DNA from: the human T2T-CHM13v2.0 reference genome, Homo sapiens
DNA length: 64,000 nt
Reading direction: 5' to 3' (one strand)
Assembly: GCF_009914755.1 (NCBI RefSeq)
Contig: NC_060925.1
Shown here: positions 1,218-44,635 of the stretch, piece after piece
How positions within the stretch are numbered: position 1 is the stretch's first letter
Layout: every line of letters begins with the position of its first letter
Notes under the pieces: model-generated
What the model was told of the DNA's origin: nothing
Seen by the model: the letters and a program-made list of their open reading frames with translations, nothing else
Databases searched by the model: none
Program-made: the position numbers and the translations under genes

Positions 1218-1262
<45 letters not shown>
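1218..1262 (+). repeat. (CA)~22 microsatellite; (UG)n in the CSMD2 pre-mRNA
   Basis: Seen directly. Confidence 0.98.
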
Positions 1263-30537: not shown

Positions 30538-30804
<267 letters not shown>

Positions 30805-32223
30805 TCATCATTCTCCAGGTACACCGTCATTCATTTGTTCAATTCTTCACTTTCTCATCCCTCATTTATTCACACACAGATATTCATGAGTACTTATCTG
30901 TAAACAGGGCAAGTTTAGCCAAGTCCTTTTTGCTTATCTTCTGTCATCCTTATTGAAATTAATAATAACAAAAGAGGGGCAATCTAAGGAGTCAGTGACA
31001 CCATCACCAGCACTGAAGGGTGGGAGAGGAGCGTTTTCTGAGTGCCTCGTGGATATTAGGCGTTTTATAGGCTGCCACTCTAACCCTCACAACATCTGAC
31101 CATGCTGTGAGGTGCTCTTACTCTACTCGTGAGCAAGTGAGATTCAGAAAGGTGAAGTAAGTTCCTCAAGGTCACACAGGAATTAGGTGGCACAGGTAGG
31201 ATTTGAATGCAGGTCTGGCTGTTCCCAAACCCTGTATTCTTCCCACCACTGAGCATCTACATGCTGCATGTGGCTTTTGCGAGTACCTACTGAAGTCAGC
31301 TGACAAGCTGACCCTTCTGATCTTTGACCAGATACTTCTGGATTCACAAATTTTCTAGGCTGGAATTCATCCCTATGGGCAGAGACTGGATGATGCTAGA
31401 GGCAGGATGCTATTTACTGAGGCTAAGTTCAGTGTGGGCTCATAACCTGGCTTTTATTACTAACACAGAGTCAAGTGCTATACAAGTGTTAGCTGCTCCT
31501 GCTGCCACTGCTGCTGTTATCGTTACTATTTCCAATCACCCCAATCCTTGCTATATTAAAAAAGTGTTCTTTAATAAATACAAATATAGTACATTATCAT
31601 TAAAGAAAATTTGAGGTATTCTATGGAACAGTAGGAAGAAATCAAACTTATCCATTGCCCTCTCAGAGATAACGACTGTTAACCAATTACAGTACGTTCC
31701 TGGAGTGTTTATTCTCTGCAAATATAAATATTTTTGTTTTATACAACTTGCATTATATGTTATATAGCTTGTGTTGATCCTTGCACACTTATTATTATAT
31801 TGCAAGAATTTCCCATATAATTACATTTCTTAGAAAATATGATTGAAATAACTTCATAGGATTTAATCATACAGATTTACTAGAATGTATTTAACAGATA
31901 CTCTGTTAACCATTTAGGTTTCCAAAGTTTTGCAATTTAAAATAAAGCTGCAATGAAATCTTTTTTTATATATGCATCTTTTACGTTTTTTTCTTTTTCT
32001 TTTTTAACTAGGAAGATTCAAGTACATGACCCTTTTGAAAGTACAGATATCTCCTGCTGAATGTCAGTAATCCTTTCCTGGAAATCAAATGTTCTGTGTA
32101 AAGATATTAACTAGGAGCCTATATCCCATTATTTTAAGTGGGAAAAAATTATACTGTGTTGTACTTCAACCCAAAATCCAAAAAGTAATTAAGACAAAAT
32201 AAAATACCTAAATATATGCAACA

Positions 32224-32403
32224 AACCATTATGTTAGAGAAGTTAAATACTTAAAACATCACGATCACCCAACAACATGGTGTGACAAAACAGCGCCTCT
32301 GTGCATTGCATACTGTACCATCCACATCCAGTGCGCCATGAAATCTTGCAGCTTGAGACATTATAAAACTCTAGGCAGAAAGAAGGTCTAGCTATGAAAG
32401 ACT
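32224..32403 (+). repeat. Copy 1 of a ~180-bp local direct duplication
   Basis: aaccattatgttaga...gaaggtctagctatgaaagact, about 90% identical to 33193-33376. Confidence 0.95.
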
Positions 32404-33192
32404 CAGTGGGAATGCATTCAGGACTGGCACTAGGTGGTAGAGTACAGTTTACAATGAACAGCATGGAGTGACACCTCAGAGCCAGCAGCCTCTGAGACAC
32501 ACATCCCCGCCATGGAATTGGAGCCCCTTTCCAAAAGTCCGCATGGGATTCTGACATTTTACCAACTGTAGTTGGAATGCAGCTTGAGACTTTCCCTGCA
32601 TATAGATTTATTGAAAATGGTGTACTATGTTTTGGGGGATCTAACTGTAAATGTTTTCTATAGACGCACTCGCTGAAATGTATCGTACTGAGAGATACGT
32701 AAGCTCTATGAAATGTGGGTGTTAAAACTAAGAGGCACTCTTGAGGTAACCAAGTGGGTTTACCTTTGATTTAACATAAGCCTGGGAAGGCCACGTCCAC
32801 ACTTGCTGCATGCTTCCACTTTGCCCTCCAGGAAAATGGTTCCCATTGATACTGTCAACAGAGTGACTGTTCCTCCAGCACTGGGTGCCATCATTCTTCT
32901 TTCACCCAGTTCATGTAATGATTGTCTATGGAGGGCTCACCCTGGGTCAGGCACTGTGTCAGGTGATGAGGTTACAAGAACAACCAAAACAAATACATCC
33001 CTTGCCCTCACAGAACTTAGGCCCCACTGGGAGAGATAGTCGTCTGTTTTAATCTTTGTTAACTTGCTAAACAAAAAAGCAGCATTTATTTTATTTTAAT
33101 TGGCATTTGATAACTAATTAGGCTAAGCATTTTTCACGTTAATGGCCTATTTGCATTTCTCTTTTTAACTGTCTATTAAAAGAGTTGTGATG

Positions 33193-33376
33193 AACCAATA
33201 TGTTAGAAGTTTAAATACTTAAAACATCACTTCATGATCACCCAACAATATGGCGTGACAAAACAGTGCCTCTGTGCATTGCATACTGTACCATCCACAT
33301 CCAGTGCACGGTGAAACCCCGCAGCTTGACACATTATAAAACTCTAGGCAGAAAGAAGGTCTAGCTATGAAAGACT
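33193..33376 (+). repeat. Copy 2 of the ~180-bp local direct duplication
   Basis: aaccaatatgttaga...gaaggtctagctatgaaagact. Confidence 0.95.
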
Positions 33377-33733
33377 TTCTTTGCCCCTATTTTTCTTATA
33401 AATTTGAAGAACTCTGAATATTCAAGGTTGACCTTAGCCGTTAATTATATTTTCCCAGTTTATCATTTGCTTAGTTTTATTTATGGCACTTTTGATTTGT
33501 AGAAGTATTAAGTTTTTATGTAGCCAATTATAATTTTTCTTAATAAGTTAAAAAAATTGGTGCCTTCCATTCTCAGTGTCATACTTATCTTCAAAACTTC
33601 TAAGGCATACTAAACTTTTCCAGGAAAAAAAAATGAATAAAAACAAATCCCCACTTAAATACAGCCTGGGTACTTTATATTTTGTGATTACTGTTTTGAT
33701 TGGGGTGATTTTCCATTACATTTTAAAACTAGG

Positions 33734-34038
33734 TTTTTTTTTTTTCAGGGTCTTGCTCTGTCACCCAGACTGGAGTACAGTGGCACAATCATGGTTCACT
33801 GCAGCCTTGACCTCCTGGGCTTAAGCTATCCTCTCACCTCTGCCTCCCAAGTAGCTGGGACTACAGACTCATGCCACCACACCTGGCTAATTAAAATTTT
33901 TTTTTTTTTTTTTTTTTTTGTAGAGATCGGGTTTCAAGATATTGCTCAGGCTGGTCTCAAACTCCTGGGCTCAAGTGATCCTCCCACCTTGACCTCCCAA
34001 AGTGCTGGGATTACAGGTGTGAGTCACTGTGCCTGGCC
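33734..34038 (-). mobile_element. Alu (AluJ-like)
   Basis: gcagccttgacctcctgggcttaagc and actcctgggctcaagtgatcctccc are J-type diagnostics. Confidence 0.92.
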
Positions 34039-34195
34039 ATAAAATTACAAATTTCTGTTTAATGCGGGAAGCTCATGGGATACTAAAAAGCAACAAAACA
34101 AAAATTTCCCAAATCTCACCATCTAGGCATAAGCATTGTGAAGATTTTGCTGTAGGATCTTGGGTCTTTTACAGACACGCCCTCCCTATTTCCCA

Positions 34196-34197
<2 letters not shown>

Positions 34198-34240
<43 letters not shown>
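34198..34240 (+). repeat. (CA)~22 microsatellite; (UG)n in the pre-mRNA
   Basis: Seen directly. Confidence 0.98.
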
Positions 34241-34245
<5 letters not shown>

Positions 34246-34251
34246 TCTTAC

Positions 34252-34363
34252 CACATTGATGGTATCCCACTGTATCCACCATGTTATTGCTACAGAACTC
34301 TAGGGCAGGGGACATTCAAGGCAGACTCTTCCATTTCATTTTGTGAATACCCTTCTTCTTCCC
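34252..34363 (-). other. Putative cryptic/poison exon of CSMD2 (112 nt)
   Basis: Acceptor ctcaacacctcaccctcttcccctcag|GGGAAGAAGAAG, donor GTG|gtaagagtata(tg)n, in-frame TAG. Usage is inferred, not observed. Confidence 0.4.
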
Positions 34364-34586
34364 CTGAGGGGAAGAGGGTGAGGTGTTGAGAGAGCATAGC
34401 CAGATTCTGGTGTGTGTGAACATGTTAACTCGTGAACGGTGGGGGCAATTGCTTTATTAATGTTAAGCAGCAGTTGGCTCAGCAGCAGCCATTGTGAGCA
34501 ATGGTCCCTGTCGTCTTCCTGGGAATGTTATTCCTCAAGCTGCTGGGTGTGCTGAATTGGCCTTTCATTTGAAGCTTTTATTTATC

Positions 34587-34892
<306 letters not shown>

Positions 34893-35227
34893 TCATTTGC
34901 AGCCTTTAAAACCAAATTAGCTTAGAAAAAAATGTGAGCTCACATGGTTCATTTGAGCTTACCAAAGGACTCAGGCTCTGCTTTTGAATCTGGGGTCCAT
35001 GCCCAGCTAATATTGAAATGCCTTCCTTTGCCTTTGTTTCTTGTCTGTATCTCTTTTTCAGAACATCACAAGGAGTGGTGAGTGTGGTCTAGGGTGGGAG
35101 TCCATAATCACTGCATTTTCTTGTGATACCATCACCTGAGTTTTTAAAATCACCTGCTTTTTTTGCACTGAACAATATAAAATAAACATTTTCCTAAATC
35201 AGTGAATTGTATTCTACATGAGTGATT

Positions 35228-35445
35228 CTTTTTATTTTCTTTTTAGAGACAGGTTCTCATTCTGTCACCCAGGCTGGAGTGCAGTACCACAATCATAGCT
35301 CTCACTGTAACCTCAAACTCTTGGGCTCAACTGATCCTCCCACATTAACCTTCTGAGTATCTGGGACTACAGGCATGCACCACCACACCCAGCTAATTTT
35401 TTTTTTTTTTTGGTAGAGGCAGAGTCTCACTATGTTGCCCAGGTT
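35228..35445 (-). mobile_element. 5'-truncated AluJ
   Basis: Flanked by tacatgagtgatt and tacatgaatgatt. Confidence 0.85.
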
Positions 35446-36272
35446 CATACATGAATGATTTGTAATGACTGTATCTTTCCCTATCTCTCTCTCTCTGAGT
35501 ATACACTTTAAATTTATAATACCTAATCTCTTACTATTTTTACATTTAGATTATTTCTAATTTCCCTGTTATAACATATCAAGCAATATCTTCATGCACA
35601 TATCTTTGCATAATTCCCAGAAGTAGGATTGCTGGGTCCTAGGTTGTTGTATTCCTTGGGAACCTTTGGATGTAAATAAATCAATTCAGGCTAGAATAAG
35701 CAAAAAAGCCTCTCAGAGAAGAGAGAACCCAAGGGTGGGTTTGCAGCCAGACTTCACAAAGGTAGAGGACGAGGAACTGAAGGGCCATCAGAAACCAAGG
35801 AAATTTTTCCACTTCTCAATCATTCTCTTTCTGCACATAGGATTGTTCTACTTTTTGGTCCACATGGAAAGTAGAAGAGCAGCAATCCATTGCACTTGGA
35901 TTTTTATCTTTTCAGGAGATGGGTCCAGGCAAAAGTAGAATCTCTTGGGTCCTATTTCAACTTCCCAAGAGAGAACATCTGATTGCCCCTGCTGCAGTCA
36001 GCTCAGGTGTCCACCTCTGGTCCAAGCTTCTGTGGCTGGGGGGCAGATGTGTGCGTGGAGGGGTGTCACAATGTACAAACAGCTGCCAAGTGCCCTGAGG
36101 AGCAGTTAAAGAGAACATTATGAGTGGCACAGGCACCACAAAGTGATTGGAATGTGTAGCTAATCATATTGTGTTAAGGTTTTGGATCTGCAATTCTCAA
36201 ACTACCTATCACTAAGTGGGCATCTTTCTGCAACCTTCCTAATTGGATAATCACTTTAAAAATTATCATGAC

Positions 36273-36795
<523 letters not shown>

Positions 36796-36944
36796 TCTGC
36801 ATTTTTCTTTGATTGTTACTGTTGTTGTTTATGTTTGCCCAATATAATCTCTGGCCACCCTTTTATCTTTAAACTGTGTCACATTGTCTTAGTTATGTTC
36901 CTGGTATAGAAAATATAGTTGAATGTTATTTAGGTTAATCTAAA

Positions 36945-37290
36945 TATATTAGTCCATTTTCATGCTGCTGATAAAAACAAACCTGAGACTGGGCAATTTA
37001 CAAAAGAAAGAGGTTTATTGGACTTACAATTCCACGTGGCTGGGGAGGCCTCATAATCATGGTGGAAGTTGAAAGGCATGTCTCACATGGTGGCAGACAA
37101 GACAAGACAGAGCTTGTGCAGGGAAACTCCCATTTTTTAAAACCATCAGATCTTGTGAGACTTACTGACTATCATGAGACTAGCACAGGAAAGACCCACC
37201 CCCATAATTCAGGTTCTTCCCACAACATGGGAATTGTGGGAGTTACAATTCAAGATGAGATTTGGGTGGAGATACAGCCAAACCAGATCA
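36945..37290 (-). mobile_element. THE1A-like MaLR solo LTR (sense to CSMD2)
   Basis: Reverse complement of THE1: tattagtccattttcatgctgctgataaa...caagatgagatttgggtgg...cagccaaaccagatca. Confidence 0.88.
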
Positions 37291-38459
37291 TTAAGAGTCT
37301 TTGTTTTTTAACAGGAAATTGAATTTTAGTAAATTTGCATTTTTCATTACAATTGAATGATTTTATTCTACTGCTGTATCTTATTTTGTGCTTGCTGTAT
37401 CTTTGTCCCTACATAGTTTCCTTTGTTCTCTGCCTTTTATATTTGAATTATGTTTTACATGTTTTTTCTTTTAGTGATTTAGAAGTACTATACTTTATTT
37501 TAAATATATTAGTGACTAAAGTATATGTTCAAAATCCTTATTTCTCTAGTGATCAAAGTCAACAATTGGATAATATATATTGATTCCACCGTCACAAAAG
37601 ATAAGGACATTCTCTTATCCCTTTTCCACCTTCTTGCACATTTATTAATATAAAATAATTATTTGTAGTCTTTTAAGAATTATTGTATTTGCACTGCTTT
37701 GAATCCATATGTTCCATTATTATTTAGCTTTAAGTCTGTGCTTAACTAGTATCAACACTCCATTTTTATCTTTTCTTTCATACATCTTCTCTATTTTGAG
37801 TTACTGGTTCATCTGGAGTTCATCCGGAGTTACAGCCACCTGGAGTTACAGCCCCGCTTGAGATAGAGTGGCAATAATTGTAAATTCTTGAATCCCTGCA
37901 AATAACAATTTCTTGCATTCACACATGAAGCCCCTAACTTTTTCTCCTCCTTAAACATCACCTCCTTCATTTTCTGTAATCTAACGTCAAAAATTAGCCT
38001 GAGAATTGTCTGATTTTGGTTCATTTAAGGTAACTTTCTCAGCCTGGATTCTTGTAGATTTCCCCTACTCCTCACCCTTACAAGTTGAAAAAATTGCCAG
38101 CCTCTTTTTTATTTCTCTTGGTATCCAGAGAGCTCCTTTATATACACAGGTTTTCTTTCATCTCAGAAAAGTTTTATCATTTCCATTTGGTTCCTTTCTT
38201 CCTGAATGCTTGTTATCAGTGTCTTGGCTCTTTGTCCACTGGGTCTCCTTATTTCTTATCTTCTATCTTCTCTCTACCATTTTCACGCCTCTGCCCTTCT
38301 CCCTATTTGGGTTGAGATTTTCAGGTTTGTCCTCCTCATCTTTGCATTGTTTTTCTACAGTGTTGCTTCTGCTCTCGCTGATTCTTGTGATGATGAAAAT
38401 TACGCTATTTTGTTTCTTTTCAGTCTTGCTATTTTTTAGTATCTAGCTTCCCTTGGAAA

Positions 38460-40050
38460 TAAAAGTTTTAATTTGGAGCAGCCACAAAGGTATAGGAGAA
38501 GTTGGAAGTATAGTACAAAAATCTTTTTCCATGAACCGTTTGCAAGTAAGTCGCCAACATGTTGCCCTGTAACCCCAGAATATCTTAGTGTATTTCCTAC
38601 AAACTAGCACATTCTCTCACATAACCACAAAACAACCATCAACATTGGGAAATTAACACTGACACATTACTGCCATCGAATCTTCACATCTCATTCAAGT
38701 TTCACCTGTTTTTCCGATAAATTCCTTGATAATTTATTGATCCAGTTCAGAATCACATGTTGCATTTCATTGTCATGTCTCTTTGGTCTCCTTTAGTCTG
38801 GAATGGTTCCAGTGTCTTTACTTGACCTTCAGAACTTTTATATTTTTGAAGACTGCCTGCCAGGGAGTTGACAGTCCGTCCCTCAAGTTAGGTTTGCCTG
38901 GTGTTTCCTCCTGATTATGTTCAGCTTGTCTTCTGCAACTGGATAATCATGGAAGTGATGCTGGCTTCTTCTCACTGCATCCTCTCACCTGGAGTATGAT
39001 TTCAATTTGTCCCATTATTGATGAGGTGGGCGTGTCTTCCAGTCTTCTCCACTTCTTTTTCCCTTTGTTATTATTGTGTGTGGAGTGGGGTGGGGGAAGG
39101 GGTAGTTTGAAGTTATGTAAATATCCCCTTCCTTATAAAAACTTGTAATTATTTAATGTCTGCGTGGATATACATAGTGTTCTGTTTGATTCAATAGGTC
39201 ACCACCATTTGTTACTATTTTAAACAACTTTGATTCTCAAATTATCCCCAATATGGTCAATGAGAACCCCTCCAAGCCAGATTCTATGTCCCTTTGACAT
39301 GTCTCCATCATGCCTTGGGCATTTCCTTAGTTTCTGCCATAAGATATTCCTGGCTTGTCTTCTACTTTCTCTGCCCCAGGCTTGGGATTAGCCATTTCTT
39401 CAAGGAGCCCTGGTCCATTTTAGTGGAAAATGTTATTTAGGAACCAATATCTGGTGCTAGATGTGCTCATTACTATTGAAGAATCACTGCTCTGAAGCCT
39501 TCTCAGTAGAAAGAGCTAAGAAATGTATGTGCAAACACACATGTACTCAAACATGCCCCACTCACACACTATTTTCTTCCATATCTCTACATATTGAAAA
39601 CCATAAGCTCACACTGATACATCCAATTCAAATTTAACACCATTGGGTATATTATAATTTTTGCTCTATCCATAGTTCTAACCCTCTTCTCTGACAGTGA
39701 GACACCTGCCTTCTATTGTCCTTGACGTATTAACGTATTCGATCACTCACCCATCTGGAACCAAGGTTTCATTTCTGCTGACCCCTCCCTCCTCACCCTA
39801 CTTGGGCTCTGACTTCCTTTCCTGGGCTGATCCTTCTCTGTGTGGCTGTCCGCCTTCCTCTGCTTGGGCTCCAATACCCTACATGGGTGTCTGCTCATCC
39901 TGCGCAGAGCTCTGACACCCTGTGCCAGCTCCATCCCTGTACAGATACCTAAGCTCCAGCTGCCCATGCCAGGCAGCCCATCAGTGTGGCTCCCCCTGAC
40001 ACCCCGGCCTGGGCTACAATGGTTCACACTCCCTCTTGCCTGACAGGTAT
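38460..40050 (-). mobile_element. L1MC-like 3' region
   Basis: ttagtgtatttcctacaaactagcacattctctcacataaccac...tccagttcagaatcacatgttgcattt...gccatttcttcaaggagccctgg; internal gggctctgac repeats. Confidence 0.65.
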
Positions 40051-40056
40051 GGATGC

Positions 40057-40435
40057 TGTATTAGTCTGTTCTCACACTGCTAATAAAAACATACCTGAGA
40101 TTGGGTATTTTATAAAGGAAAGAGGTTTAGTTGACTCACAGTTCAGCATGGCTGGGGAGGCCTTAGGAAATTTACAATCATGGGAGAAGGGGAAGCAAAC
40201 ACGTCTTTCTTCACATGGCAGCAAGAAGGAGAAGAATGAGAGCCCAGTGAAGAGGGAAGCCCCTTATAAAACCACCAGATCTCGTGAGAACTAACTCACT
40301 ATCATGAGAACAGGATGGAGGAAACTGGCCCCCATGATTCAATTATCTCCACCTGGTCCCTCCCATGACATATGGGGATTATGGGAACTACAATTCAAGA
40401 TGAGATTTGGGTGGGGACACAGCCAAACCATATCA
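40057..40435 (-). mobile_element. THE1C/D-like MaLR solo LTR (sense to CSMD2)
   Basis: tgtattagtctgttctcacactgctaataaa...gggtggggacacagccaaaccatatca; TSD GATGC/GATGT. Confidence 0.9.
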
Positions 40436-41129
40436 GATGTCTTTGCTTTGTCCCATCTCACAGCTTTAGGACTGAATTATTCAAGTGGGGAAGGGAAGAG
40501 ATTTAGCTTTCGTTTTATTTATCTCTTGGCCAGATCTTTCTTTTCATTTGTGTGCTGTCTGAACATTTCACCTGTTATTTGGAGTCCATGTTATCTAGAC
40601 TTATATTAGAAGAAGATGCTTCCCAAAATTTATTTCTATTACTTCTAGTTCCTAAACCATGTTTTTTTTTCAAGGGCATTTTTCTCTGTAATTCAAACTT
40701 CATGTTCTAACTTTTAATGTTATAAAATCTTTCACAGGTCTCCTTAAGGTATTTTTCCTTTTTCTTATTGATCCTCATATGAAAAGAAAGTTCCTTAGGG
40801 CTGCTTGCCTGGAGAAAGGCAAAAATTCTTTCCCCCACTCCCTTCCACTGTCCACTTTTTGCAAGTCTAGCTCCTTTTTTTTTCTTTAGTTCTTATCTTG
40901 AATATCCTCTCTTAGGTTTTCCACAATTACTTTGCATGGAATTCTACAACTTTTTGTTTGCTATCTTATCCTTTTATGTCTTTCGAAGCATTTGTTACAA
41001 TTTGCAAAAATTTTGTCCTCTTGGTTACTCATTATCTCTTTCTCCTTGGAGCAGGAAAGCTGTCTGGGGAGCAGACATTTCACAGAGCAGGAAGCATGAA
41101 CACTCAGTAACACAGGAAAGGATGCTCTG

Positions 41130-41870
41130 CCTCATCACAAGCATACAAGTGAAATGCCATCTCATGCACCTACCAGACTGGTAGAAATGTAAAGTCTGCT
41201 AAAACCCAGTGTTTGCAAGGATGTACAGCAAAAGGAACTCTACTTCAGTTGCTGGGAAGAGTGTAAATGGTTATAACTGCTTCTAAGATAAATTGAGCAT
41301 TACCTAGTGAAACTAAATATGTGGATATTTACAACCTCACAACTCCACACAGACATGTACTCAAGAGAAACCCTTGTACATGTTCACAATAAGGAATAAG
41401 CAACAATGTTCTTATTGCTTGAAATGAAACAACTTAAGTGTTAACAGTAGACTAAATAAATTGCTATATTTTCATGCAATGAAATCATACAGCATTGAAA
41501 AATGAGTTAAGTGCAGTCACATGCATCAACATGAATTTCAAAAACTTAATTTTGAGTGAGAAGAGCAGGTCACAGAAGAACATTTATAGAATGATTGTCT
41601 TTACATAACAGAAATAACATGCAAAATTAAACAACATATTTTTGGAGACTCACATATGGAGTAAAATAAAAAGAAAAGCAATGAATATTAACCAAAAGTA
41701 CAGGATCATGGTAGGGTAGGGGAATGTGCTGAGGAAGGAACAGAGCTTCAAAGGCTTAGGTGTTCTTTTTCTTAGGCTCAATGATGGTGTTCATTTTATT
41801 ACTCTTTAAACTGCACATACATGTTACATACATTTTTATATGTAGGATATATTCCACAACTTACCAAAAG
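41130..41870 (+). mobile_element. L1ME-like 3' fragment
   Basis: gtgtttgcaaggatgtacagcaaaaggaactc...gtgtaaatggt...catgcaatgaaatcatacagc...caggtcacagaagaa. Confidence 0.65.
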
Positions 41871-42043
41871 TTCTATGAGGCATGGAATGTGCCTCTCTTG
41901 CTCACTCATCCCCTAGTCCAGTGCCTCTCCCACTTGAGCCTGCCGATCTGGGCACAGCAGTTCCTCCTCTCTTGCCCCAGACCCTTGCCTGCTCCTGTGG
42001 TCAGTGAAGCCTTGGGCTCTGGTCTGAGCTGGGACTGAATGGC

Positions 42044-42735
<692 letters not shown>

Positions 42736-44263
42736 AGGGCCTTGTGTCTCATCTGAGAGGCAGAAGGAGCATTGTGCCCTTAGGCAAGCACTCTCAATGA
42801 AAGACCTTGCTGAGAAGAACTTGGAAATAAGGATGGCCTGGGGCTGTGCTGAGCCTCCTTTGCCTGGTTCTGGTACAGGTGAAGGCTCAGGAACAGGAAC
42901 AAGAGACCTGGCCTACCACCAAGGTAACTTTACACCAAGCCTGTCAATATCTAGATATAATAAAAATAATCATGACAATGATGACTATTAGAACTATAAT
43001 TTATTGATCACCTTTTATACTCTGTGCCTGGAGCTAAGGATTTCCAAGCATTGTTTCATTTAACTTTAGGAGGTTAGGTACTTATATGATTCCTATTTTG
43101 TGCATAATAACATTGAGGCTCAGAAGGGTGAAATGACAGACAAAGTTACATAGCTTGCATGTGTCAGAGCCAAGGTTTGAACCCGTCTGTGACTCTGAAG
43201 TCCATACTCTTATCACTCTATGGGAAAGTCACAAGTCAAAATGACAGAGCCTTAAAGCCTGGATTTCATTAGTGGAGCGACAGGTGTGCCCAATGAGAGG
43301 GGCATGGGAACTGAGCAGATGGAGAGGGCGGAGTCTCATTCCCACATTGCACTCACCCTGGACGATAGCTCCTGGGAATGGCAGTCACAGCTGCTTAGGT
43401 TCTTTACATCCTTGTTTCTCTCTGTTGCTTTCTGTTTCTTTCACTACCTCTTTCACAGTCTTAGTGTGTTTCTGCAAGTGCACGCATGATGTAATAACAC
43501 TGTATAGTCACACCAGAGCAGATACTGTAGCAGATACTGCAGCAGATACTGCGGAGGCTGGGTTCTGTTTCCAGTTCTATCCACATGGTTTTGGGCAAGT
43601 ACTTGAGCCTTCCTTTGCCCTATTTCTTCATTTGTAAAGTGGGGGTTAGAATATTTGCCTTACTACCTCACAGAATTCTTACAGGTCACAAACTCCAAGC
43701 CGGTAATTCTACAGGTGAAGAAACTGAAGTCTCAAGTGGGGAAGGGACCTGTGCAAGGTTTTACACAGCTGGCCCAAGGTGGAGCTGGGAGTAAAATCCA
43801 GCTTTCCTGATTTCTGGTTAAAATATCTGCAGTGATCTGTAAATTGCAAATATGTGCATCATTCCATAGATAGGCACAAGTCCACAGAGAACATTCTATA
43901 AGTTTCTCTAGGCAATTCCACTATAATAAAAATGAGGAAATATCCAGATCCCTAACTTGGGACTTGTAGAAGAAAACAGGCTGCCAATAAAGGCATACCT
44001 ACTCTGAATTGTTCATACTCTTCCTACTCAAAAATCACAATATCTTCATTTGTGCACAAAAACACAGTGCTCCTTGAGAGGTCAGCAGAAGCCCTAGATC
44101 CCTTTGGAGAAGGAGAACCCGCTAGAAAGTGCTAAGGGATAAGCTGGGGCACAGGTATAGGGATGATCCAGCCAGTGAGTTGATGTGAATGAGTGGACTT
44201 GGCACCAAGGTTTGGGCTTCTGTGCCTCTCTGCCCTGGCAGTGTGGAATAGGAGGAAAACTTG

Positions 44264-44635
<372 letters not shown>

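What the first reader, a model, noticed from the sequence alone, without database searches (positions are those of the whole stretch)
34198..34395. Candidate TDP-43-repressed cryptic exon in CSMD2: strong acceptor, GAA enhancer, and a donor abutting (UG)~22
Seen on the minus strand, in order: a branch-point-like CTCAAC/CCTCAC, the tract cctcaccctcttcccctcag|, an exon opening with purine-rich GGGAAGAAGAAGG, a donor GTG|GTAAGA at 34252/34251, and a pure (TG)~22 run starting 11 nt later. Spliced after the phase-1 exon 44461-44606, the 112-nt form reads GEEEGYSQNEMEESALNVPCPRVL-stop, giving a poison exon or a truncation before the transmembrane region. A second acceptor (tcccctgccctag|, 34299) gives a 48-nt in-frame, stop-free insert, EFCSNNMVDTVGYHQC, which would be a potential neo-epitope. 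Established: TDP-43 binds UG repeats and represses adjacent non-conserved cryptic exons, and CSMD2 is brain-expressed. Inference: this exon is included when TDP-43 is lost, and repeat-length polymorphism may tune its leakiness.
Basis: partly seen in the sequence, partly recalled or inferred. Interest (0 to 1): 0.8.

Follow-up and report, generated by a model that had tools for sequence, protein, structure and literature searches.

The report
Unused pseudo-exon beside CSMD2 UG repeat
A well-formed exon look-alike sits right next to a long UG repeat inside a CSMD2 intron, but the one public table of TDP-43-loss splicing events I could read lists two other cryptic splice junctions in this intron and not this one, so it is most likely an unused pseudo-exon.

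Summary
These are acceptor AG|34363, second acceptor AG|34299, donor GTG|GTAAGA after 34252, a perfect (TG)22 at 34240-34197 starting 11 nt after the exon end, phase-1 entry, and both translations.

On a crude matrix built from recalled frequencies, the acceptor scores at or above all 18 annotated acceptors in the window. The donor is mid-range.

The functional claim is not borne out where I could test it. The supplement of Brown et al. 2025 (PMC12667841) covers 3,905 cryptic events from TDP-43-depletion datasets. It has five CSMD2 rows, which are two junctions, both ending at the exon-30770 acceptor of this same intron. One maps exactly to a donor at window 32764 (AAG|GTAAAC). The other maps to about 35387-35431. 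Neither uses 34252, 34363 or 34299. The held supplements of an NMD-inhibition study contain no CSMD2.

So TDP-43 loss does cause cryptic splicing in this intron, but through other sites. Raw reads, the main table and a further supplement could not be seen. Low interest.

The parts
34378..34390 (-). Branch-point-like motifs: CTCAAC (34390-34385) and CTCAC (34382-34378, A at 34379)
   Evidence: Read directly. CTCAC fits the yUnAy consensus (recalled), but its A lies only 15 nt before the AG.
34364..34383 (-). Pyrimidine tract plus AG of the main predicted acceptor (cctcaccctcttcccctcag)
   Evidence: Crude matrix score 12.5, at or above all 18 annotated acceptors in the window (matrix frequencies recalled from memory).
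34252..34363 (-). 112-nt pseudo-exon. In phase 1 it reads GEEEGYSQNEMEESALNVPCPRVL, then stop (TAG at 34292-34290).
   Evidence: Not among the RefSeq exons in the hub table. Not in the cryptic-event table of PMC12667841.
34351..34363 (-). Purine-rich GGGAAGAAGAAGG at the start of the exon
   Evidence: That GAA repeats act as exonic enhancers is recalled knowledge, not tested here.
34252..34299 (-). 48-nt in-frame alternative form (EFCSNNMVDTVGYHQC) from the second acceptor, AG at 34301-34300
   Evidence: Acceptor score 6.2; only 3 of 18 annotated acceptors score as low or lower.
34246..34254 (-). Predicted donor GTG|GTAAGA (exon ends at 34252)
   Evidence: Score 7.9; 10 of 18 annotated donors score as low or lower. 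It has six contiguous base pairs with U1 (positions -1 to +5), judged by eye against the recalled U1 5' end.
34197..34240 (-). Perfect (UG)22 in the transcript, the probable TDP-43 binding site
   Evidence: It is by far the densest GU cluster in intron 30771-44460: 41 overlapping GUGU/UGUG in 60 nt, against 8 for the next best window. TDP-43 binding is inferred, not shown.
34410..34418 (-). Short CACACACAC, 47 nt before the acceptor and complementary to the UG run
   Evidence: The minimum-energy fold pairs it with the UG run, but the region folds no better than shuffles (z = -0.44).
32758..32766 (-). Cryptic donor AAG|GTAAAC (exon ends at 32764), which matches the published junction chr1:33587168-33589162 (hg38)
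   Evidence: PMC12667841 media-2.csv rows. The published span of 1,994 equals a 1,993-nt intron plus 1, which places a GT exactly at 32763-32762. Score 6.8.
35387..36094 (-). Exon of other RefSeq transcripts. In phase 1 it reads GHLAAVCTL then stop. It is the probable source of the second published junction, chr1:33587169-33591806.
   Evidence: Hub table. The mapping is 22 nt off in either direction (35387 GGT|GTGGTG or 35431 ATA|GTGAGA) and remains unresolved.
30690..30770 (-). Annotated downstream exon whose acceptor receives both published cryptic junctions
   Evidence: Hub table.
44461..44606 (-). Annotated upstream exon, ending in phase 1 with G

Best explanation
The stretch is a genuine, unusually well-formed pseudo-exon. 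It is a chance set of splice-like signals in a 526-nt single-copy stretch between two masked repeats, 11 nt upstream of a (UG)22 microsatellite in the 13.7-kb CSMD2 intron between exons 44461-44606 and 30690-30770.

The UG run is very probably a high-affinity TDP-43 site. This is inferred from the known UG preference of TDP-43. TDP-43 depletion in iPSC-derived cortical neurons does provoke cryptic splicing in this intron. This is shown only by a published table.

The junctions called there use donors at 32764 and at about 35387-35431, both spliced to 30770.

Splice-site strength plus an adjoining UG run was not enough to predict use. The donor actually used scores lower than the predicted one.
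For: - PMC12667841 section 5 describes a compendium of TDP-43 depletion datasets. The threshold is liberal: inclusion below 5% in controls and above 10% in knock-down in any dataset. It yields 3,905 events.
- Its supplement media-2.csv holds 'CSMD2' 5 times. Four rows are chr1:33587168-33589162. The two of these four rows that I saw are labelled Seddighi-i3Cortical and UPF1-i3Cortical, 'non-NMD rescued'. One row is chr1:33587169-33591806, labelled Seddighi-i3Cortical, 'Never observed' in tissue.
- Anchoring 33587168 on the annotated exon edge 30770 puts the first donor at 32764, where the sequence reads AAG|GTAAAC. Donors scoring at least 6.8 occur at only 2.0 per kb, so the hit is unlikely to be chance.
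- The same acceptor was quantified in those datasets, so a 34252>30770 junction above 10% should have been listed.
- PMC12262666 (NMD inhibition in TDP-43-deficient neurons): 0 occurrences of CSMD1, CSMD2 or CSMD3 in its 2 held supplementary files.
- Strong pseudo-exons are common: 11 unannotated sense pairs against 10 antisense pairs in 64 kb.
- GGTAAG placed before (TG)12 is not enriched in the genome: 602 matches against 782 for the control.
- A second (UG)22 lies 74 nt after the donor of constitutive exon 1336-1524. A nearby UG run is therefore compatible with normal exon use.
Against: - The architecture is the textbook one for TDP-43-repressed cryptic exons.
- The predicted acceptor (12.5) and donor (7.9) outscore the sites actually reported: 6.8 for 32764, and -1.7 or 5.1 for the second junction.
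- The list is thresholded, and I saw no reads.
- The paper's main table (media-1.xlsx) was too large to open.
- No acceptor-side junction is listed for either reported event, so the table is not exhaustive per junction.
- CSMD2 events were called in only one or two datasets, which suggests marginal coverage.
- If 34252 splices to an internal cryptic acceptor rather than to 30770, my argument from the shared acceptor fails.
- The hg38-to-window mapping is my own arithmetic, not a lift-over.
Confidence: 0.62

Rival explanations
1. TDP-43 bound to the (UG)22 run 11 nt after the donor blocks U1 recruitment or exon definition. When TDP-43 is lost, the 112-nt exon (PTC, NMD) or the 48-nt in-frame form is included, at a level or in a cell type that the published calls missed.
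For: - All sequence elements are present.
- The acceptor scores at or above 18 of 18 annotated acceptors, and the donor at or above 10 of 18.
- The UG run is the dominant GU cluster of the intron.
- The intron is demonstrably sensitive to TDP-43 loss.
- The PMC12667841 abstract says that the most sensitive events have stronger splice sites and denser canonical motifs.
- The 112-nt form carries a PTC, so NMD could hide it.
Against: - It is not among the 5 CSMD2 rows of the 3,905-event table, although the same acceptor was scored there and a UPF1 dataset was included.
- There is no CSMD2 in the held supplements of the NMD-inhibition study.
- No paper in the library pairs CSMD2 with 'cryptic exon' and TDP-43 (0 papers). 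By title and abstract opening, none of the papers concerns TDP-43-dependent splicing of CSMD2.
- A recalled paper, whose title phrase is found in 19 papers but which I did not read, reports that UG repeats near 5' splice sites have unpredictable effects.
Confidence: 0.16
2. The exon is silenced redundantly, so TDP-43 loss alone does not release it. Candidate extra brakes are hnRNP L on the CACACACAC 47 nt before the acceptor, PTBP1/2 on the CU-rich tract, or a pUG quadruplex formed by the freed (UG)22 next to the donor.
For: - CACACACAC lies at 34418-34410, and the tract contains CUCUU.
- The PMC5959245 abstract states that TDP-43, PTBP1/PTBP2 and hnRNP L each repress cryptic exons through dinucleotide repeats.
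- The opening of the PMC13558559 abstract states that TDP-43 binding prevents the pUG fold, and that the fold prevents TDP-43 binding.
- That 22 repeats are enough for such a fold is recalled knowledge.
Against: - The argument rests on motifs alone, with no binding or knock-down data for this site.
- The CA run is only 9 nt long.
- The local fold is no more stable than shuffles (z = -0.44; 61 of 200 shuffles fold at least as well). That program does not model quadruplexes.
Confidence: 0.1
3. The exon is an unannotated, low-level poison exon used independently of TDP-43 in normal brain and removed by NMD. The neighbouring UG run is incidental.
For: - The splice-site scores are strong.
- The PTC lies 38 nt before the exon end, with at least 11 exons downstream.
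- The same intron already holds an annotated PTC-bearing alternative exon, 36094-35387 (hub table).
Against: - It is not among the exons of the 11 RefSeq transcripts in the hub table.
- No expression data are available here.
- There is no CSMD2 in the held supplements of the NMD-inhibition study.
Confidence: 0.08

Closest known systems
TDP-43-repressed non-conserved cryptic exons (as compiled in PMC12667841; examples recalled: UNC13A, STMN2, ATG4B, HDGFL2)
   Same: An unannotated intronic exon with usable splice sites, a long UG run next to a splice site, and a frameshift or PTC or an in-frame insert, in a neuronal gene.
   Different: No evidence of inclusion on TDP-43 loss: it is absent from the 3,905-event table. 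CLIP binding and conservation could not be tested.
The two CSMD2 cryptic junctions already tabulated: hg38 chr1:33587168-33589162 and chr1:33587169-33591806 (PMC12667841 supplement)
   Same: The same intron, the same downstream acceptor (30770), and the same trigger (TDP-43 knock-down in iPSC cortical neurons).
   Different: Their donors map to window 32764 and to about 35387-35431. These lie 1.4 kb downstream and 1.1 kb upstream of the UG run, not at 34252. The nearest GU motifs to them are short: UGUGUGU at 32503-32497, and GGGUGUGGUGGUG at the 35387 donor.
Intronic pseudo-exons in general (recalled: splice-like site pairs outnumber real exons in human introns)
   Same: A good acceptor and donor at exon-like spacing with no annotated use. 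The window holds 11 such unannotated pairs on the sense strand and 10 on the antisense strand.
   Different: This one is at the top of the window's ranking, and it adjoins a repressor-binding repeat.
CFTR exon 9 (UG)m(U)n and TDP-43 (recalled)
   Same: TDP-43 bound to a polymorphic UG run next to a splice site lowers exon use, and repeat length tunes the effect.
   Different: There the run lies at the 3' splice site of a real exon. Here it follows the 5' splice site of an unannotated one.
Cryptic exons repressed by hnRNP L or PTBP through CA or CU repeats (PMC5959245, abstract only)
   Same: Repression through dinucleotide repeats. A short CA run and a CU-rich tract flank the acceptor here.
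   Different: The motifs here are short, and no data link them to this site.

Membership tests
TDP-43-repressed cryptic exon | Absent from normal annotated transcripts | tested here: met
   Not among the exons of the 11 RefSeq transcripts listed in the hub table. No RNA-seq was available to confirm absence in normal tissue.
TDP-43-repressed cryptic exon | UG-rich TDP-43 motif next to or inside the exon | tested here: met
   A perfect (UG)22 at 34240-34197, 11 nt after the exon end. It is the densest GU cluster in the intron.
TDP-43-repressed cryptic exon | Usable 3' and 5' splice sites at exon-like spacing | tested here: met
   Acceptor score 12.5 (at or above 18 of 18 annotated acceptors), donor score 7.9 (at or above 10 of 18), length 112 nt. 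The matrix is crude and uses recalled frequencies. MaxEntScan and SpliceAI were not available.
TDP-43-repressed cryptic exon | Inclusion rises when TDP-43 is depleted | tested here: not met
   It is absent from the 5 CSMD2 rows of the 3,905-event table, which does list two other junctions into the same acceptor. No CSMD2 appears in the held PMC12262666 supplements. Caveat: these are thresholded calls. The raw reads, the main xlsx table and the Seddighi supplement were not seen.
TDP-43-repressed cryptic exon | TDP-43 CLIP signal on the adjacent repeat | not testable with these tools
   No CLIP data were reachable.
TDP-43-repressed cryptic exon | Not conserved across species | not testable with these tools
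   No other vertebrate genome is held. Within the human assembly the 240-nt stretch is single-copy: 1 match, itself.
NMD-targeting poison exon | An in-frame stop more than about 50-55 nt before a downstream exon junction | tested here: met
   TAG at 34292-34290 in the 112-nt form, with 11 annotated exons of this window downstream. This holds only if the exon is ever spliced in.

The most novel reading that the evidence does not exclude
The 112-nt or 48-nt exon is a real, so far unreported TDP-43-repressed cryptic exon of CSMD2. In this reading it is hidden by NMD, by low coverage or by splicing to another cryptic acceptor, and its leakiness depends on the length of the adjoining UG run. In line with length variation somewhere nearby, the second published junction maps to a GT donor in this assembly only if hg38 and this assembly differ by 22 nt. 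That difference would fall within 32764-35386, a segment that holds the (TG)22 and three homopolymer runs.
Probability: 0.15. Interest if true: 0.4.

Novelty: not a real feature. Interest (0 to 1): 0.2.

Why it matters
If the exon were used, it would add one more entry to a list of thousands of TDP-43 cryptic events. It would lie in a synaptic complement-control gene, and its 16-residue in-frame insert could serve as a neo-epitope marker.

As things stand, the value is mostly cautionary. In this intron a textbook pseudo-exon (top-scoring acceptor, GAA-rich start, donor 11 nt from (UG)22) is not the site that published TDP-43 knock-down data report. A weaker donor 1.4 kb away is. Reading motifs alone therefore over-predicts cryptic exons. 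The locus could serve as a negative or hard case for splice predictors and for rules on where TDP-43 must bind to repress an exon.

Tried and rejected
- **Local RNA structure hiding the splice sites.** The 256-nt fold gives z = -0.44, and 61 of 200 shuffles fold at least as well. Rejected.
- **Known RNA family in 32000-36500.** 0 Rfam matches at gathering score.
- **Repeat-derived exon.** The 240-nt query finds only itself in the assembly. That search skips very common words, so an ancient repeat origin is not excluded.
- **Papers naming the event in their text.**
  - CSMD2 + 'cryptic exon' + TDP-43: 0 papers.
  - CSMD2 + TDP-43: 4 papers.
  - CSMD2 + cryptic: 26 papers.
  - CSMD2 + TARDBP: 6 papers.
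  - By title and abstract opening, none of these concerns TDP-43-dependent splicing of CSMD2.
  - The junction numbers themselves: 14 papers, of which the 10 listed are unrelated by title.
- **Main table of PMC12667841 (media-1.xlsx).** Too large to open. The supplementary PDF is unreadable here.
- **Exact placement of the second junction.** There is no GT at the position expected without indels (about 35408, inside an A15 run). GT donors lie 22 nt to either side, at 35387 and 35431. Left open.
- **Acceptor of the exon ending at 32764.** The candidates are 32851, 33026, 33066 and 33343. None can be chosen without reads.
- **MaxEntScan and SpliceAI.** Not available. I used a position matrix with frequencies recalled from memory, so the scores are only relative.

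Full report
**1. The observation**

- CTCAAC lies at 34390-34385 and CTCAC at 34382-34378.
- The pyrimidine tract cctcaccctcttcccctcag ends in AG at 34365-34364, so the exon starts at 34363.
- The exon opens with GGGAAGAAGAAGG.
- A second acceptor, ccctgccctag, ends in AG at 34301-34300, so that form starts at 34299.
- The donor is GTG|GTAAGA, with the exon ending at 34252.
- Tandem Repeats Finder reports a perfect dinucleotide run of 22.0 copies at 34197-34240. It begins 11 nt after the exon end.

I checked the frame from the annotation. The 18 annotated exons of the window joined (2,916 nt) are open only in frame 2, with 0 stops against 27 and 38 in the other two frames. Exon 44461-44606 ends in phase 1 with a G.
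- The 112-nt form then reads GEEEGYSQNEMEESALNVPCPRVL-stop, with TAG at 34292-34290.
- The 48-nt form inserts EFCSNNMVDTVGYHQC and rejoins the normal frame at [10 protein letters not shown].

**2. Is it more than chance?**

MaxEntScan and SpliceAI were not available. I scored sites with a simple position matrix whose base frequencies I recalled from memory, so only relative ranks count.
- The 34363 acceptor scores 12.5, at or above all 18 annotated acceptors in the window.
- The 34299 acceptor scores 6.2; 3 of 18 annotated acceptors score as low or lower.
- The donor scores 7.9; 10 of 18 annotated donors score as low or lower.

Good site pairs are not rare. With acceptor >=10, donor >=7.5 and spacing of 40-250 nt, there are 11 unannotated pairs (8 acceptors) on the gene's strand. 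The antisense strand, where no gene is annotated in the hub table, gives 10 pairs.

Only two sense-strand UG runs of 5 or more units exist in the window. From site densities in the window, the chance that a given run has such a donor within 30 nt and such an acceptor upstream of it is about 0.4%.

Across the whole assembly, GGTAAG within 20 nt before (TG)12 gives 602 matches, against 782 for the reversed-pattern control. I count 28 distinct places on contig C1 alone. The arrangement is therefore uncommon per repeat, not enriched genome-wide, and present a few hundred times by extrapolation.

The 240-nt stretch around the exon is single-copy in the assembly. It lies between two masked repeats. 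It matches no Rfam family. It folds no better than shuffled sequence (z = -0.44).

**3. What the published data say**

No paper in the library holds CSMD2, 'cryptic exon' and TDP-43 together in its text. Wider pairings found nothing relevant by title or abstract opening.

Supplementary tables were more informative. Brown et al. 2025 (preprint PMC12667841; I read the abstract, section 5 and one supplement) assembled TDP-43 depletion datasets. They kept any event with inclusion below 5% in controls and above 10% after knock-down, which gave 3,905 events in 2,684 genes.

Their file media-2.csv holds CSMD2 five times.
- Four rows are chr1:33587168-33589162, on the minus strand. The two rows that I saw are labelled Seddighi-i3Cortical and UPF1-i3Cortical, and 'non-NMD rescued'.
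- The fifth row is chr1:33587169-33591806, labelled Seddighi-i3Cortical, 'Never observed' in post-mortem tissue.

**4. Mapping those junctions onto the window**

Both junctions share their low end. I equate that end with the annotated exon edge 30770, which gives hg38 = window + 33,556,398. This agrees to within about 10 nt with the gene start I recall for hg38.

The first junction spans 1,994, which corresponds to a 1,993-nt intron if the coordinates are the exon edges. That puts the donor exon end at 32764, where the sequence reads AAG|GTAAAC with GT at 32763-32762. Donors at least this good occur at about 2 per kb, so the fit is very unlikely to be accidental.

The second junction lands at about 35408, inside an A15 run with no GT. 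GT donors lie 22 nt to either side.
- One is at 35387 (GGT|GTGGTG), which is the annotated end of the exon 35387-36094 used by other RefSeq transcripts.
- The other is at 35431 (ATA|GTGAGA).

Either way, hg38 and this assembly would differ by 22 nt somewhere in 32764-35386. That segment contains the (TG)22 and three homopolymer runs. I could not settle which donor is used.

**5.

The acceptor at 30770 was evidently quantified in those datasets, two competing donors passed the 10% threshold, and 34252 did not.

One dataset included UPF1 depletion. A separate study of NMD inhibition in TDP-43-deficient neurons (PMC12262666) has no CSMD2 in its two held supplementary files. NMD masking is therefore a weak escape.

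The donor that is used scores 6.8, below the predicted donor's 7.9. Several still stronger donors in the intron, up to 10.0 at 33838, are also unlisted. Site strength and a neighbouring UG run did not predict use here.

The second (UG)22 of the window lies 74 nt after the donor of the constitutive exon 1336-1524. A UG run close to a donor is therefore compatible with normal exon use.

A paper I only recall reports that UG repeats near 5' splice sites have unpredictable effects. Its title phrase occurs in 19 library papers.

**6. Limits**

- I saw called events, not reads.
- The main table (media-1.xlsx) was too large to open.
- Neither reported event has an acceptor-side junction in the file, so the file is not exhaustive.
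- CSMD2 events were called in only one or two datasets, so coverage may be marginal.
- If 34252 splices to an internal cryptic acceptor rather than to 30770, the shared-acceptor argument does not apply.
- CLIP binding and cross-species conservation could not be tested.

**7. Mechanism, as far as it goes**

- Shown: the sequence anatomy, the frames, and the existence of two tabulated knock-down-induced junctions in this intron.
- Inferred: TDP-43 occupies the (UG)22.
- Open: whether that run, 1.1-1.4 kb from either reported donor, controls them. The alternative is that short nearby GU motifs do. These are UGUGUGU at 32503-32497, about 260 nt after the 32764 donor, and GGGUGUGGUGGUG at the 35387 donor.

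If the pseudo-exon is silent even without TDP-43, there are three possible reasons, all motif-level speculation.
- hnRNP L may bind the CACACACAC at 34418-34410.
- PTBP may bind the CU-rich tract. The PMC5959245 abstract names both factors as cryptic-exon repressors.
- The unbound UG run may form a pUG quadruplex next to the donor (PMC13558559, abstract opening).

**8. Verdict**

The stretch is best treated as a well-formed but unused pseudo-exon next to a probable TDP-43-binding microsatellite. It is of a known kind and of low interest. Its main use is as a hard negative case for motif-based prediction of cryptic exons.

Noticed in passing
window 1219-1262 (minus-strand transcript): A second perfect (UG)22 lies 74 nt after the donor (TCT|GTAAGT) of the constitutive exon 1336-1524. 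It is a natural example of a long UG run close to a donor that is used normally. No CSMD2 row in the compendium file concerns this exon.
   Followed up: partly
window 32758-32766, and acceptor candidates at 32851, 33026, 33066 and 33343: The published TDP-43-knock-down junction maps to a donor AAG|GTAAAC with the exon ending at 32764. Its acceptor is not in the table. Four AG sites score 5.2-9.3 and would give exons of 88-580 nt. Entered in phase 1, the 88-nt form has no stop, while the 263-, 303- and 580-nt forms do.
   Followed up: partly
window 35387-36094: The exon of other RefSeq transcripts has a good acceptor (tttaactgctcctcag|G at 36094). Entered in phase 1 it reads GHLAAVCTL then stop. 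Its low end lies 10 nt past an A15 run, at the GU-rich start of an Alu right arm. The annotated end gives a very weak donor (GGT|GTGGTG, score -1.7), while ATA|GTGAGA at 35431 scores 5.1. The second published junction sits 22 nt from either.
   Followed up: partly
window 30690-30770: The downstream exon that receives both cryptic junctions has the weakest donor of the 18 annotated exons (TAG|GTACCA, score 1.9 on the crude matrix).
   Followed up: no
window 34120 and 34363: A stronger donor, ATG|GTGAGA (score 8.6), lies just beyond the UG run. Paired with the 34363 acceptor it would give a 244-nt exon with the (UG)22 inside it. It is not in the published table either.
   Followed up: no
window 32764-35386: The second published junction can be matched to a GT donor in this assembly only if hg38 and T2T-CHM13 differ by 22 nt in this segment. 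The segment holds T23 (33897-33919), (TG)22 (34197-34240), a T-rich 35-mer (34576-34610) and T15 (35397-35411). This suggests length variation in one or more of these simple repeats.
   Followed up: no
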